Positions 318-62,735 of a DNA stretch of 64,000 nt are shown piece after piece. The notes under the pieces were generated by a model that was not told where the DNA came from, made no database searches, and saw nothing but the letters and a program-made list of their open reading frames with translations. How positions within the stretch are numbered: position 1 is the first letter of the stretch; each line of letters opens with the position of its first letter. The DNA comes from Eledone cirrhosa. Taxonomy: Eukaryota. A program made the position numbers and the translations under genes. The DNA is taken from NCBI GenBank assembly GCA_964016885.1, contig OZ024747.1, forward strand, positions 92,628,001-92,692,000, given 5' to 3'.

Positions 318-739
318 CCTCGTTCTTCCCCCAACTCTCACATTCACATACACACACACACGTACACCTACACACACACACCACCTTCAGCCCTCCCCGC
401 TCGGACACCCCGCCTCCTTCTCCCCACTCCACCCGCCACCACCCCTACACGCCCCACACCCTTCCACCACTTGTTTATCTTCATGTTTATTTTTATTTTT
501 ATTATTATTATTATTTTTATTATTTTTTTATATTTATTTTCATCTGTACCCCTTCCACCGCCCCCCCCCCTTCTAAATGTCTCTCCCCCACTCCCCTACA
601 CACCCTTGGAACCCTCTTCCCACACACTTTTCGCCTGAAGAAGGGCTTATGCTCGAAACGCCCCCCCCTCTCAAGAGCGTGAAACTAATAAACCTTTGTT
701 CGTACTGCCTCTCTGTTTTGTTCCCGTTCCATTTTTCAC
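318..739 (+). mobile_element. C-rich repeat family A (PLE-tail-like), truncated copy with degenerate HHR core at 635-659
   Basis: Homologous to 1122-1775 and 34420-35512. Contains CTGAAGA-agggc ttat gctc-GAAAC then AATAAA; flanked by (TA)n. Confidence 0.65.
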
Positions 740-877
740 TATATATATATATATATGCACATACATGCATATATATATATATATATATATATATAAATGA
801 AAGGTATAGAAAACTTTAATCTGTTATTTTAATATATATATATATATATATATATATATATATATATATATATATAT

Positions 878-1076
878 ATAAATAACAGATTAAAGTTTAA
901 GCAAAGAATCGCTGCTTTCACCCTTAACGGGATCTTCTGAAAGCAGCGATTTTTTGCTTAAACTTTAATCTGTTATTTTAATAAATATTTGCTCTACGGT
1001 TCTTATATATTTGATATATATTTATCCTTATCGAGCCCTCTTTGGATTTTAGTCTTCAAATTTATTATTATTACTA
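878..1076. repeat. Fold-back element family E between (TA)n tracts
   Basis: Arm aaataacagattaaagtttaagcaaagaatcgctgctttca and its reverse complement around a short loop. Same family at 10980-11256, 23565-23612 and 48063-48148. Confidence 0.8.
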
Positions 1077-1121
1077 TATATATATATATATATATATATA
1101 TATATATATATATATATATAT

Positions 1122-1775
1122 CACCTATATAACTCACCCACACACACACCCCAAACATTTTTTTTTATCCACACGCCACCTACACCCACAACACGCTTAA
1201 ACCCCACACACACGTGCTTTCCACCACATATTTACACCCTCAGCCTCCTGATTCCTCTCCCCCCACCCTTCTATCCACACACGGACACTCCGACCCCCCC
1301 CCCCGCACACACACACACCTCTTCCTGAACATGCAACCCCGTTCTTCCCCCAACCCTTACTTTCACATACACACACACACACACACGCACACCTACACAC
1401 ATACACCACCTTCAGCCCTCCCCGCTCGGACACCCCGTCTCCCTCTCCCCACTCCACCCGCCACCACCCCTACACACCCCACACCCTTCCACCACCTGTT
1501 TACCCCCCTTTTAATTTCAGTTTATTTTGATCATGCTTTTATTTTTAAATTTATCTTTATTTTTTATTTTTTCATTCGCACCGTTTCCTTTCGCTATATG
1601 TCTCTCCACCACTCCCCTACACACCCTTTGAACTCTGTTCCCACACACTTCCCACCTGAGGAAGGGCTTATGCCCGAAACGTCGTCCCCCACCAACACCC
1701 CACTCTCCAGAGCGTGAAATTAATAAACATTCGTTGTACTGCCTCTCTGTTTTGTCCCTGTTCAAATTTTTCCAT
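1122..1775 (+). mobile_element. C-rich repeat family A copy with HHR-like core at 1656-1680
   Basis: CTGAGGA-a-GGGC ttat GCCC-GAAAC, then AATAAA and (TA)n. Near-identical to 34875-35512. Confidence 0.7.
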
Positions 1776-58580: not shown

Positions 58581-60835
58581 CTATGTATACCAAGAATATT
58601 ACCTACAAGAAAATGTACTATATATATATGTACCTATATATAAAAAGTTCTAATTTATTATGATTCATATAAAAATCATAATAAATCATAATAAATCAAT
58701 AAATAAACAAATATTTGTGTGTGTGTGTGTGTGTTTGTGTGTGTGTGTGTGTGTGTGTGTGTGTGTGTGTGTGAGTGTACATGTGTGTGTGTGTGTGTGT
58801 GTGTGTGTGTGTGTGTGTGTGTGTGTGTGTGTGTGTGTGTGTGTGTGTGTGCGTGCGTGAGTGTACGTGTGTGTGTGTACATGTGTATGTACATATATAT
58901 ATATATCATTCAACCTCTTGTCTTGAACACAGTACACTGGTTAGAAATAATAAAATAATAATACAATGATACACATAGTTAGATAACTATTTTTATGTCA
59001 TTTGAATATTCATCTAGTTTTATCTATAACTGGTTTTCATTGTAGAAAGGCAGAGAAAGAATTCAATGAAAATTCAATAAGAATTTATAGAAAAGAAGAA
59101 AATCTTTTTAGAAGTGGTAGGAATTTTTGTTGAGAATTTTGATATTAAAACAAGAAAAATAAAATATATATATATAGAGAGAGAGAGTTTGATATTTTGC
59201 AATCATTGAATTTCCTTTATGCTGACAAATTTTTAGTTTATATATATATAATAGTAAGAATTTTTTAGTTAATTTATATAAAATGTAATATTTGTTTTGG
59301 GAAAAAAATTTCTATAAAATTATTTTATCACTTCAGATTAAAGCTATTTACCTCAGAATATCTCTTGATCATCTGATTCACTTAAATTTTAGCCATATCA
59401 TTTGCATGTTATACACATTGACTGCAGAGATGACAGATTGATGATATTTCACTTGTAAAATTACCTTATGTTGTCACATGTATCATTAACTTCTGTCAAG
59501 TTCTGTCAGCATATACATACTAGATAAGCTATGTTTTCATTATACTGCAGTTTAAACATCCTAATATTTTGCTGTTTGTCGGCAGAAAATATGAAATAAT
59601 AGCTTCTTATTTGGGACTTCGCATTCAATAAAAGTTTTAAATTACAGCTAAAAATCATCTAAAACTACTACATTGAAAGGTAACTACTGTCTTTATGAAG
59701 ATGTATTACCTAGAATAATGTATAAGTTGTGAAAAGATACAGAAATGACAGTGTGTGAGGCATCAATATATTTAAAGAATAGATAAGAAGAAAATATAAT
59801 TTCTTCATTTCTTTGTTAAATTCCTAAGTGACAAGAAACCTTATGCTCACAGGATCAGGTATAAAATCACATAATGCCACAAATATATATATTTTCACTT
59901 AAGCAATATCTGATGATTTCTTTTTGCACAAAGTATTTGCTCAGTTGTGAGCACAAGAAAGTTTTCAAATGCAAAATGAATTTAATTTGCTTTTTCTCTG
60001 AATAATATATTTTATTTAAAATAATAAAGATTTTAGAAAAAGTTTTTTTTTGTGTTAATAATGCAGAAATAGAAACATACCTTGATTTATTCTTCTATAT
60101 ATGTAAGTAGTCCATTCTATGGAGCAATATTGCAAAACAAAAGAAAAAGAGAGTGTGAGAGAGAAGACAGTTGACTGAAGTGGGTACACCAATAAAGTTT
60201 ACTAAGAGAACACTATTACCTGGGGAAACAAAAGAACTAAATCTATAGTTTATATGAATTTTAGTAGTTAAATATGTCAATTATTTAGTACAAAACGTTG
60301 CTAAGGGGTGGGGTGGGGTTGTTCCAGCCTTGTAGTGACTAAATTAAGCAATAATAGTCTACCAACTCAGAAAACTTCTGTAAAAACTTAAAAGCTATAA
60401 ACTTGAAGTTATATATATATGTTTTTGATGTTGAATGCTTTCCATTATGATATTGAAACAGTAGCTCAGAGAATATGAAAACCAAAGATGGTATTTTTAT
60501 TGCTAAACATAACCAACTTTAACTAGATGTTAGTTTGATTAAACAAAAATTAAATTCTAGAAAACAAAAAATAATTTATCAGATCTGAATTCAGACTGGA
60601 GAAACCATTCCTTGCTTATAATGACTTGGGAGTTGAAGATGTTTAGCAAGTATAGTAAGAGCATAGGTGAATTGTTAAGATTCTTGGAGATTCTAATTTG
60701 AAAGAACTTGATGTGTTAGGTGAATTGTTTTACTAATTTCTTTTGTTCGTTTCTGCCTTTGATTGGCTTCTTTGTTACAGTTTCTAAGTTATGTAATTCT
60801 GAGTTTTTTCTATACTTTTATTCATTTACTTATTC

Positions 60836-61035
60836 GTTATTATTATTATTATTATTATTATTGTTGTTGTTGTTGTTGTTGTTGTTGTTGTTGTTGTTGT
60901 TGTTGTTGTTGTCGTTATTGTTATTATTGATATTATTATTGTTATTATTATTATTATCATCATTATCATAATAATTATTATTATTGTTGTTGTTATCATT
61001 ATTATTATTATTATTATTATTATTGTTGTTATTAT
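60836..61035. repeat. (TTA)n/(TTG)n trinucleotide microsatellite
   Basis: Read directly. Confidence 0.9.
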
Positions 61036-62662
61036 TTACTTTCGATAGTACTCAACTGAAGTTTAATTTTTTTTTCCGTTTTATTATTTTTTTAATTTTA
61101 AATTTACTACTTTAGATATAAAAAGAATTAAAAATATAAAACCAGATAAATGCTTTATAGGAAATATAATTTGTCCATAAATGTTTTAAAACAAATTTAC
61201 ATTTATTGCAGAATAATAATAACTGTGAAAATCCACTGTATTGGAACACACAAATAAACAACAAGTAAATCCAGTGAGAAAATTTAATTCATCAGAGTAT
61301 CAAAATTTTTATCCTTAAAAAATATTCTCATTATGAATTTGACACCTAAAATAATAATGCAATTTATCCATAGTTGAAAACAATTTAAATTGCATTCATT
61401 TGTAGTTACAAGTTTTACCCATGGGCAAATATTGCAATTTCTTATATTTTCAGTTGCATTTAAATATGTTTATATGTTTTAAAGAATATTTCAGCCTTTG
61501 TTGTTATTCCAGAATTAAAACTGCAGTATAATATCTTGTCCCTTAAAGGCATGTTTTTTCTTTTAACAATAAATGCATACCACAGCCATATTAATGAGCA
61601 AATGAATTATAACGGAGAGCTCAAGTTACAGCATCATTTATCTTAGAACTGACTTCTGAAATATTCAGAAAATAAAATATTGCAATGTTTTAAATTATGG
61701 AGATGCTATATACTCCGTTGATGTTGTCTAGATGGTTCAGATAATTGGCATTTTGTTTTAAAGCTATAATTCATGTATGTACAACTAACCTAGAAAAAAA
61801 TGAATCTGAGTTATTTGGAGATATGAAAGAGAGATAAAATATGTATATCATAAGTGTAATTGCTGCAAATAATGATTATGTGGTCAGACTATTTCACATT
61901 TTTATTGTAAAATTCAATGACATATGCTAAAAGGTCTTCAGGAAACTAAAGAATATATATACACACACACACACACATATATATATATATATATATATAT
62001 GTATGTATATGTATGTATATGTATGTATATATTTATGTCAGGTCGCTCTTCAGCGCTACTGGTAACATGTAACCCAGAACAACCTGTGCATGGTTAGGTC
62101 ATCGCTGACTAAACTGGCAACACCACCAAGCTTGCTTGGTGAGGAGGGTGAATTTGGACACCTTGCGAGATGAAAAACAAAACCTGTCAAAGGGCAGAGG
62201 AACTCAGGAGAGTCAATGGCCATCCAATAAAGAATTTTTTTGTCTTGTGGAATGAGAGACTTCTATTCTTCATTAAGACATCTCTCTAGGAGAAGGTCAC
62301 TCTGTTATAAAACCTACACATTTATTTGCATCCAATGATGTAGACCAGTTCTTTTAGGGCAAATCTATATGATGTTCAGAGAGTAGGATTGGCCCTGGGA
62401 AAAGCCTTTCCTCACTTAAAAAAGTTTCAAGCACAGGTATCGCTTGACATGTGACTTTTTTTGTGGTGCATGGCATTGCCAGCTATAGGCAAGTCTCTAG
62501 CAGAACTAAAAGGTCATGTCCATGATGCTCATGCTTAAGTATCAAGTGATGGCGTTACTCAAAATCGAATTGCAACCATCATATTTCATATTTGATATAT
62601 ATATATATATATATATATATATATATATATATATATATGTATGTATATATATATATATATAT

Positions 62663-62735
62663 TTGGTATCCCTGAAATATGTATAATGAAATAAATATGG
62701 TTTTATAAATATAGTTTCCATTTATTTAATATCGT
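62663..62735 (+). mobile_element. Family D fragment (3' half of HHR only) in (TA)n
   Basis: ggtatccctGAAAtatgtaTAatgaaataaatatggttttataaatatagtttcc. Confidence 0.7.

What the first reader, a model, noticed from the sequence alone, without database searches (positions are those of the whole stretch)
635..62735. A hidden population of minimal hammerhead ribozymes in the unique islands inside (TA)n microsatellites
Seen: about 15 motifs with canonical CUGANGA...GAAA...NUH cores and formable stems, starting at 5469+, 6595-, 7291-, 8142+, 8507-, 10132-, 10661-, 29608-, 29929-, 30354+, 30646-, 30710+, 33630-, 45028+ and 50807-. About 9 more are variant or degenerate. They belong to at least 8 unrelated families, most sit within a few hundred bp of (TA)n, and many are followed by AATAAA/ATTAAA. 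Established: PLE pseudo-LTRs carry minimal type-I HHRs, and metazoan non-LTR retrozymes are HHR-containing repeats that yield circRNAs. Inference: the (TA)n tracts of this genome are the landing sites of a diverse PLE/retrozyme-like system. At roughly one motif per 3-4 kb here, such ribozymes could be very numerous genome-wide.
Basis: partly seen in the sequence, partly recalled or inferred. Interest (0 to 1): 0.92.

Follow-up and report, generated by a model that had tools for sequence, protein, structure and literature searches.

The report
Hammerhead-tipped Penelope elements in TA repeats
The self-cutting RNA motifs are real and mark the ends of a known kind of jumping gene (Hydra-clade Penelope-like elements) and of small non-coding passenger repeats, both landing in TA microsatellites; what looks new is their very large number and the shared insertion footprint, which suggests the passengers use the jumping gene's machinery.

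Summary
Observation confirmed. All 15 listed motifs parse as type-I hammerheads. My descriptor finds 14 in the window (0 reversed, 0 in 30 shuffles) and 49 in 590 kb sampled genome-wide: about 250,000 per 3 Gb, one per 12 kb rather than per 3-4 kb. (TA)n lies downstream of the cleavage site, not upstream. Three families end Hydra-type Penelope-like elements; one has intact 821-aa copies with a hammerhead in each pseudo-LTR. This system, with (TA)n targeting and hammerheads, is published, including for an octopus (PMC8557442). Other families are 323-650-nt non-coding units, i.e. non-LTR retrozymes; a 483-nt one forms 99-100% identical arrays of up to about 9 units. Both classes share one footprint: two fixed 3' ends 50-110 nt apart, 5' truncation and an inverted copy, with one long and one short end in 21 of 23 inverted insertions. 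That supports, but does not prove, mobilisation of retrozymes by Penelope-like machinery. A young family has a fixed U4A core change. Cleavage, expression and circles are untested. The scan noted a similar footprint on other DNA (e1-7810660).

The parts
50734..54096 (-). 5'-truncated Hydra-type Penelope-like element (family A): broken ORF pieces 53375-53752 and 51851-53374, about 1-kb 3' UTR, hammerhead, tail ending at (TA)n
   Evidence: 80% aa identity to an intact 821-aa copy, L091; structure of intact copies
50807..50877 (-). Family A type-I hammerhead, AUA triplet, palindromic helix III, 36-nt helix II
   Evidence: same motif in both pseudo-LTRs of L091 and L093
7112..8300 (.). Inverted insertion of the 483-nt retrozyme; long end on the left, short end on the right, (TA)n on both sides
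7291..7374 (-). Hammerhead of the 483-nt retrozyme, left arm
8142..8225 (+). Hammerhead of the 483-nt retrozyme, right arm
10028..10509 (.). About 323-nt retrozyme-type unit with inverted partial copy; canonical hammerhead 10131-10176 (-) with extended helix I; copy at 10321 (+) truncated in stem I
   Evidence: (fold z -3.4)
33268..34385 (.). About 650-nt repeat unit (1.3 copies plus inverted part) with hammerhead 33630-33703 (-)
   Evidence: (tandem pair 657 bp apart on C1)
10523..10867 (.). Family B end: hammerhead 10659-10720 (-), long tail, inverted partial copy
29795..30457 (.). Family B inverted pair: hammerheads 29927-29991 (-) and 30352-30416 (+), tails 140 and 49 nt
30510..30802 (.). 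Family B inverted pair: hammerheads 30644-30709 (-) and 30708-30773 (+), tails 142 and 37 nt
   Evidence: family linked to a Hydra-type ORF in L019+L156
45024..45090 (+). Family B-related hammerhead, long tail to (TA)n at 45259
62663..62734 (+). Family B copy 5'-truncated inside helix II (half ribozyme) between two TA tracts
8507..8612 (-). Hammerhead with 81-nt helix II; family linked to a Hydra-type ORF
   Evidence: (L152: 49% aa identity to family A RT)
5469..5580 (+). Hammerhead with 85-nt helix II in a 207-bp island between TA tracts; repeat family with inverted pairs; ORF link not tested
6595..6662 (-). Degenerate hammerhead (no flush helix II)
29607..29672 (-). Hammerhead remnant whose stem I 3' strand is cut by an unrelated element
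35393..35424 (+). True minimal hammerhead (no helix III insert, bulged base after A9, 2-bp stem I) near the 3' end of a ~640-bp TA-flanked element 34877-35513
   Evidence: 39 other copies at 99-100%
1654..1685 (+). Second copy of the minimal hammerhead (element 1122-1775); a third, degenerate copy at 635 lacks the triplet
10984..11255 (.). Inverted pair of the U4A-core family: motifs 11000-11050 (-) and 11095-11145 (+), short and long tails; further pieces at 885-1074, 23569-23610 and 48068-48148 (motif 48084-48134, -)

Best explanation
The motifs are type-I hammerheads at the 3' ends of two classes of element that share one integration route. (1) Autonomous Hydra-type Penelope-like elements: one ORF (telomerase-like reverse transcriptase, CxCx5C linker, C-terminal endonuclease), with a hammerhead in the pseudo-LTR. 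Most genomic copies are 5'-truncated stumps that keep only the ribozyme and its tail. (2) Non-coding 323-650-nt units (non-LTR retrozymes). SHOWN: the anatomy, the directional TA link, the two fixed 3' ends and the inverted head-to-head pairs. INFERRED, from the in vitro mechanism of another PLE (PMC11167929): the endonuclease nicks both strands of a (TA)n tract; each nick primes reverse transcription at one of two internal RNA sites downstream of the ribozyme; the two cDNAs meet at their truncated 5' ends and leave an inverted pair with one long and one short tail. Copying starts 40-370 nt downstream of the cleavage site and runs through it, so the template cannot be a cleaved linear monomer. 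It must be an uncleaved read-through or multimeric RNA, or a circle. INFERRED: the palindromic helix III makes cleavage depend on dimers of the same family, so solo stumps are mostly silent while tandem transcripts are cut to monomers that may circularise. INFERRED: the retrozymes borrow a Hydra-type enzyme in trans.
For: Intact (TA)n-pLTR[HHR]-821-aa ORF-pLTR[HHR]-(TA)n copies. Hydra motifs RWT, DKT, YRDD, CxCx5C, CxxC, CxH (vs PMC8557442 section 11). Predicted fold's best match is telomerase TERT, E 1.3e-8. 32,128 first-look candidates for the RT piece, 150 scored; ORF remnants in 13 of 59 sampled stretches. Families A, B and 8609 tied to such ORFs. Fixed ends at 51/133 nt (family A) and 80/184 nt (483-nt unit) after the cleavage site. 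One long plus one short end in 12/14 family-B, 3/3 family-A and 6/6 483-nt inverted insertions, p 3e-5 against independent ends (one cross-insertion row dropped). Arrays of 483, 467 and 528 nt are bounded by (TA)n with an inverted partial unit. Each of 8 family palindromes pairs better with itself than with any other, and 8 of 10 form no hairpin alone.
Against: No cleavage, transcript or circle was observed. The enzyme that moves the retrozymes is not identified: the 483- and 467-nt units show no BLAST similarity to the 12 family-A loci, and I did not search the genome for other TA-targeting PLE clades. Five of 11 folded motifs (8609-, 5473+, 6656-, 29670-, 45034+) fold no better than shuffles (z -0.7 to +1.6). 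Most other Hydra-type ORF remnants in the samples showed no canonical core before the first TA tract. Pfam gave no RT or GIY-YIG hit for the ORF. No tree against reference Hydra proteins was built. The family-B pair count comes mostly from loci found with a palindromic query.
Confidence: 0.85

Rival explanations
1. The retrozyme arrays are local satellites: a 1.x-unit insertion (or a pLTR stump) was expanded in place by unequal crossover, with no circular or multimeric RNA template. This is the route discussed in bioRxiv 10.64898/2026.07.22.740005.
For: Array-private variants shared by all units (8/8 units in L154, 5/5 in the C3 array) fit local expansion as well as rolling-circle copying. Two adjacent C3 units share a further change.
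Against: Arrays on many chromosomes are 99-100% identical, end at the same two points and carry inverted partial units, so each was inserted independently and recently. The 483-nt unit is not a piece of the family-A pLTR. This rival can explain unit number but not the dispersal.
Confidence: 0.25
2. The retrozymes are moved by another enzyme (a Neptune, Naiad or Poseidon PLE, or a microsatellite-targeting LINE) and not by the Hydra-type elements.
For: Other PLE clades also prefer (TA)n and leave tails and inversions (PMC8557442 passages). The minimal-hammerhead family at 35393 is young and may belong to another clade. LINE remnants are in the window.
Against: Tail offsets of the 483- and 528-nt units (about 100 nt) resemble those of the Hydra families here (82-105 nt) more than the published 30-40 bp. 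Young intact Hydra-type ORFs are abundant. Cephalopod Naiads are described as long inactive, if the host is a cephalopod, which I did not test.
Confidence: 0.3
3. The motifs are passive relics: structurally hammerheads, but catalysis is irrelevant to spread.
For: Hammerhead mutants did not affect insertion of the Anolis PLE in vitro (PMC11167929 passages). A young, abundant family here has a fixed U4A core change.
Against: The wild-type core dominates (40 hits vs 0-3 for every other single change except U4A). 23 sequence clusters keep the core, stem I and family-specific helix III sequences, mostly palindromic, although the descriptor partly selects for palindromes.
Confidence: 0.2
4. Chance matches in AT-rich DNA, or fold-back assembly artefacts.
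For: Short motifs; one 530-nt inverted repeat is 100% perfect.
Against: 0 hits in reversed sequence and about 0 in shuffles. The same structures occur at dozens of loci, with unequal arm ends at fixed positions.
Confidence: 0.02

Closest known systems
Hydra clade of C-terminal-endonuclease Penelope-like elements, including Hydra-1_Obim (Craig et al. 2021, PMC8557442; seen: abstract, passages, sections 11 and 12, supplement part 2 with the S1 Hydra sheet and S2 hammerhead table)
   Same: Single RT plus C-terminal endonuclease ORF; DKT, CxCx5C, CxxC and CxH motifs; 3' hammerhead; (TA)n insertion; partial tandems and inverted truncated copies.
   Different: RWT for RWK. Elements about 4 kb with about 1-kb 3' UTR (published: generally <3 kb). 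Clear pLTRs (Hydra-1_Obim: 'no pLTR'). Helix II usually 25-97 nt against short hairpins in the S2 table. Tail 82-105 nt against 30-40 bp. Tens of thousands of copies. No motif here matches the Hydra-1_oBim row by eye.
Minimal hammerheads of PLE pseudo-LTRs (Cervera & de la Pena 2014, PMC4209133; seen: parts 1-2 of 4, abstract to start of methods)
   Same: Dimer-type palindromic helix III, solo motifs from truncated PLEs, opposite-strand pairs 100-700 bp apart, bulged base after A9 (the 1656/35395 family).
   Different: 2,000-9,000 per genome there against about 250,000 estimated here; most motifs here are not minimal.
Metazoan non-LTR retrozymes (Cervera & de la Pena 2020, PMC7229834, seen: passages and discussion; Li, Clavereau & Pollet 2026 preprint, seen: first of 5 parts and passages)
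   Same: Non-coding, <45% GC tandem units with one type-I hammerhead each; PLEs proposed as mobilisers; about 5,000 motifs in mussel, up to 120,000 copies in axolotl.
   Different: Units here reach 467-650 nt. They carry the PLE tail and inversion footprint in (TA)n, which I did not see described for retrozymes in the parts read ('tail' has 0 occurrences in the preprint). Circular RNA is not shown here.
PAc (Poseidon of Anolis) internal priming (Frangieh et al. 2024, PMC11167929; seen: passages) and the 31-bp tail of Adineta Penelope (PMC3846280; seen: passages)
   Same: Two internal reverse-transcription start sites define the tail; both strands are cut and extended; the tail sits on one of the inverted pLTRs.
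   Different: Site spacing about 50-110 nt and family-specific here; targets are (TA)n tracts; near-strict pairing of one long with one short end (21/23).
Non-autonomous Chlamys elements such as MRC1 (PMC8557442 passage)
   Same: Non-coding elements with head-to-tail multicopy insertions, thought to be moved by PLEs.
   Different: Those resemble their autonomous partner at the 3' end, and most Chlamys lack hammerheads; the units here have hammerheads and no similarity to family A.

Membership tests
Type-I hammerhead ribozyme | CUGANGA, GAAA and NUH boxes in type-I order | tested here: met
   15/15 listed motifs; controls
Type-I hammerhead ribozyme | Helices I and II formable | tested here: met
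   12/15 pass the tiered descriptor; 6656-, 8609- and 29670- are weak or broken
Type-I hammerhead ribozyme | Rfam covariance-model match | tested here: not met
   0 hits at gathering score; the top 150 of 482 E-value rows shown held no hammerhead family. Long helix II and short helix III probably explain this (inference)
Type-I hammerhead ribozyme | Self-cleavage after NUH | not testable with these tools
   needs in vitro transcription
Penelope-like element (EN+) | Telomerase-like RT with C-terminal GIY-YIG-type endonuclease in one ORF | tested here: met
   821-aa ORF, YRDD, best fold match TERT. Endonuclease judged by motif only; Pfam GIY-YIG E 0.012 only in homolog P0004
Penelope-like element (EN+) | Pseudo-LTRs with hammerhead, inverted truncated copy, one-ended tail | tested here: met
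   L091, L093, L094, L100
Hydra clade | DKT, CxCx5C linker, CxxC and CxH around the conserved E and N | tested here: met
   positions 144, 680, 780, 808; C, E, N, H columns nearly invariant in the alignment
Hydra clade | RWK motif | tested here: inconclusive
   RWT at 58 in family A; RWK in homologs P0001 and P0002
Hydra clade | Insertion into (TA)n | tested here: met
Hydra clade | Phylogenetic grouping with reference Hydra RTs | not tested
   no reference proteins were available as tool records
Non-LTR retrozyme | Non-coding tandem unit, one type-I hammerhead per unit, low GC | tested here: met
   483-nt unit, 39% GC, arrays to about 9 units; 467 and 528 nt; no tRNA found; no ORF >=100 aa inside 7112-8300
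Non-LTR retrozyme | Expressed as linear and circular monomer RNA | not testable with these tools
   needs RNA from the host
Minimal PLE hammerhead (min-HHR) | No helix III insert, bulged base after A9 | tested here: met
   met only by the 1656/35395 family and two degenerate relatives; none of the 15 listed motifs has this form

The most novel reading that the evidence does not exclude
This genome holds a live two-part system: a young Hydra-type PLE protein, and several young, unrelated hammerhead retrozymes that it copies in trans from circular or multimeric RNA. It starts at two internal sites about 50-110 nt apart, one on each strand of a cut (TA)n tract. That would be direct footprint evidence for the proposed PLE-retrozyme link, at about a quarter of a million hammerheads. 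Family-specific helix III palindromes would act as self-recognition codes for dimer cleavage, and a U4A core (about 30,000 copies) would be tolerated or active.
Probability: 0.5. Interest if true: 0.72.

Novelty: new member of a known kind. Interest (0 to 1): 0.5.

Why it matters
Who mobilises animal retrozymes, and what PLE hammerheads do, are stated as open in the papers read (PMC7229834 discussion; PMC8557442 passages). This genome offers matched material: intact 818-823-aa ORF copies, retrozyme arrays at 99-100% identity, and base-precise predicted priming sites. It also suggests that about 250,000 hammerheads (bootstrap 170,000-340,000) go unseen by Rfam, and that many short palindromes between TA tracts are PLE stumps, which matters for repeat and microRNA annotation. 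The underlying system itself is published, which caps the surprise.

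Tried and rejected
Rfam: no hit at gathering score; the E-value scan was swamped by microRNA models matching TA hairpins. Pfam and PDB sequence searches did not recognise the ORF. The whole-window repeat finder was dominated by microsatellites, so I used masked self-BLAST. Public runs: no RNA holder listed. 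Laying contigs of four unclassified runs on 7050-8300 gave only short pieces and neither confirmed nor refuted the inversion joint. 'Near TA' without direction was rejected as a test because tracts are dense (3.4 per kb in the window, 1.9 in the sample). L039 as a family B-ORF link was rejected: other repeats lie between; L019+L156 was used instead. Tail calls by TA regex for the 10169 family were confounded by an internal TA run, so that family is left out of the 21/23 count. No tRNA in four retrozyme units. Other CUGANGA sites (4821+, 15726-, 18408+, 29285+, 31895+, 37250+, 50361+, 59910+, 61941-, 62053- and others) gave no full parse under the descriptors. Literature: eight searches gave no paper on a genome-wide hammerhead census in such a genome beyond 235 Rfam hits in giant squid (PMC6962438, passages) and an O. 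vulgaris repeat paper with 0 occurrences of 'ribozyme' (PMC13282606, passages). They gave no listing that points to a natural U4A hammerhead; U4C is known (PMC3088659, passages; its figure 5 and supplements were not seen). Lunse et al. (PMC5785218), on small PLE hammerhead variants that cleave as dimers, is not held and may cover some variants. The preprint's supplements and the rest of the Craig supplement were not seen and may bear on novelty. The host species was not determined; octopus papers were searched on a recalled resemblance of the repeat landscape.

Full report
Setting. The window is 33% GC animal DNA with 216 (TA)>=6 tracts. It lies at C7:92,628,001-92,692,000 of a 2.996-Gb assembly. 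The host was not identified.

1. The observation. All 15 listed motifs parse as type-I hammerheads. A strict descriptor finds 8 in the window, against 0 in the reversed window and a mean of 0.05 in 40 microsatellite-preserving shuffles. A three-tier descriptor finds 14 (12 of the 15, plus 1656+ and 35395+), against 0 reversed and 0 in 30 shuffles. The three it misses are weak or damaged: 6656-, 8609- and 29670-. The 15 motifs are 12 insertions in 9 sequence groups. Rfam sees none.

Genome scale. In 59 stretches of 10 kb taken at round coordinates on 27 contigs, the same descriptor finds 49 motifs (24 strict) in 27 stretches, against 0 reversed and a mean of 0.2 in 5 shuffles. That gives about 249,000 per genome, bootstrap 168,000-335,000. 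This is an extrapolation from 0.02% of the genome, and neighbouring hits are not independent. The window (1 per 4.6 kb) is richer than the sample (1 per 12 kb).

The TA link is directional. A tract lies within 250 nt downstream of the cleavage site in 36/46 sampled motifs against 191/1068 control sites. Within 200 nt upstream the figures are 8/46 against 152/1068; enrichment upstream appears only at wider limits, as expected for short truncated inserts. So the ribozyme sits near the 3' end of an inserted element. AATAAA/ATTAAA follows within 60 nt in 10/15 motifs against a 10.5% background. It is present in 21/21 family-B and 4/5 family-A hits and in 0 hits of the 483-, 467-, 528- and 323-nt units, though it is present in the 650-nt unit. 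In families A and B it overlaps stem I, and in four window copies it starts at the cleaved base. A use as a poly(A) signal that cleavage would remove is an inference.

2a. Autonomous class. The motif at 50807-50877 (-) lies 984 nt after a broken ORF. The RT part of that ORF has 32,128 first-look candidates in the genome; the 150 scored include several 818-823-aa open frames with equal scores. Of 12 fetched copies, L091 and L093 show (TA)n, a pseudo-LTR with hammerhead, an 821-aa ORF, a 3' UTR, a second pseudo-LTR with hammerhead and (TA)n. L093, L094 and L100 carry inverted copies. The protein has RWT, DKT, YRDD, CxCx5C, CxxC and CxH, matching the Hydra definition except RWT for RWK. Its AlphaFold model (pLDDT 70.8) best matches telomerase TERT. 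The commonest motif family, B (15/49 sampled hits, 6 window hits), ends a related ORF at L019+L156. The 8609 family ends another at L152. ORF remnants occur in 13 of the 59 stretches, but most showed no canonical core before the first TA tract.

2b. Non-autonomous class. The 7369-/8147+ motif belongs to a 483-nt unit whose 40 scored candidates are 99-100% identical and are often spaced 483 bp apart. L154 is a whole insertion: (TA)n, an inverted piece, about 8.9 units, (TA)n. The 10169 family is a unit of about 323 nt with a canonical extended helix I. The 33700 family repeats at about 650 nt. The random sample gave two more arrays, of 467 and 528 nt. These fit non-LTR retrozymes in DNA anatomy. 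The 483- and 467-nt units have no BLAST match in the 12 family-A loci.

2c. Shared footprint. Family A ends 51 or 133 nt after the cleavage site; the 483-nt unit ends at 80 or 184 nt; family B is bimodal near 50 and 145 nt. Inverted insertions have one long and one short end in 12/14 (B), 3/3 (A) and 6/6 (483-nt) cases, p = 3e-5. One row pairing two separate insertions was dropped, and the B loci were mostly found with a palindromic query. The 467-, 528- and 323-nt examples show the same pattern by eye. A one-ended tail of 30-40 bp is the published PLE signature and was traced in vitro to two internal RT start sites.

2d. Ribozyme anatomy. Helix II is long (median 31 nt, >=25 nt in 39/49). Helix III is a family-specific palindrome that pairs best with itself and, in 8 of 10 families, forms no hairpin alone, as in published dimer-type motifs. 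The descriptor partly selects for palindromes. A scan of single core changes gave 40 wild-type hits, 9 U4A, 3 G12A, 2 U3-A8 and at most 1 for the rest, with controls at or below 0.3. The U4A hits are one family with a stable helix III; one copy lies 974 nt behind a Hydra-type ORF remnant. Its 40 scored genomic candidates are 98-100% identical, and 6 hits in 590 kb suggest about 30,000 copies. Its activity is unknown.

3. Mechanism. See Best explanation. The anatomy is shown. Nicking of (TA)n, two-site priming with one site per strand, dimer cleavage, circularisation and trans use of the Hydra-type enzyme are inferred. One deduction is firm: copies begin downstream of the cleavage site and run through it, so the template was uncleaved, multimeric or circular. 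Array-private variants (8/8 units in L154, 5/5 in the C3 array) fit rolling-circle copying but also local expansion.

4. Comparison. It works like a Penelope-like element. Family A meets the tested Hydra features except RWK, and no tree was built. Hydra-1_Obim, with (TA)n preference and a hammerhead, is already listed for an octopus. Thousands of solo and opposite-strand motifs from truncated PLEs were described in 2014. Retrozymes are known from mussel and axolotl, with PLEs proposed as mobilisers.

5. Novelty and verdict. New members of known kinds. In the searches and passages listed I did not find the scale, the 50-110-nt tails, the PLE footprint on hammerhead retrozymes or a fixed U4A core; unseen papers and supplements may hold them. 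Interest 0.5: the biology is mostly published, but the genome makes the PLE-retrozyme question directly testable.

Noticed in passing
window 10984-11255, 885-1074, 23569-23610, 48068-48148; L033, L049, L106, L111, L113: Young family with a full hammerhead fold but a fixed U4A core change, a U.U at 10.1-11.1, a 5-bp helix III and a CUU triplet; about 30,000 copies by extrapolation; same long/short tails.
   Followed up: partly
window about 28600-29609 (-); L114 2050, 3009, 3969: An element of about 960 nt cuts the stem I of the 29670 hammerhead; it occurs three times in tandem in L114. Its start recalls Helitron-type ends (recalled, not tested).
   Followed up: partly
L111 4934-6328; L114 6467-7935; L034, L105, L101: Further retrozyme families with 467-nt and 528-nt units, TA-flanked, with an inverted partial unit.
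   Followed up: partly
L118 662 (-) and 5892 (-): Two identical hammerheads with the U3-A8 covariant core, 5.2 kb apart, on either side of a Hydra-type ORF remnant.
   Followed up: no
L031, L036, L038, L113, L115, L014: Hydra-type ORF remnants whose 3' regions reach (TA)n without a parsable hammerhead; L031 has two CAGANGA boxes, L115 one CUGAUGA box.
   Followed up: partly
window 4403-5101, 22074-22281, 28208-28484, 54102-54306: Related fragments (70-83% identity) of a non-LTR retrotransposon C-terminus (clade recalled as restriction-endonuclease type, no Pfam hit); one abuts the 5' truncation point of the Hydra-type element.
   Followed up: no
window 54631-55326 (+): 231-aa frame with a weak zf-RVT hit (PF13966, E 2e-4, below the curated cut-off): LINE remnant.
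   Followed up: no
window 11663-11856, 14047-14247, 15967-16497, 17312-17521, 22598-22976, 38924-39078, 39912-40007: At least ten copies of a 140-200-bp SINE-like repeat; a second family at 45496-46275, 48752-49096 and 56367-56568.
   Followed up: no
window 9527-9622, 9747-9857, 25827-25941, 45773-45865: Short near-perfect palindromes, some between TA tracts; possibly head-to-head stumps truncated before any ribozyme. Rfam microRNA models match such hairpins below gathering score.
   Followed up: no
window 25726-25755 (+), 39642-39673 (-); L056 9860: Degenerate minimal-type motifs far downstream from any TA tract (3954 and 884 nt); an intact-core relative lies in L056.
   Followed up: partly
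window 23908-24599: 35-bp minisatellite, about 20 copies.
   Followed up: no
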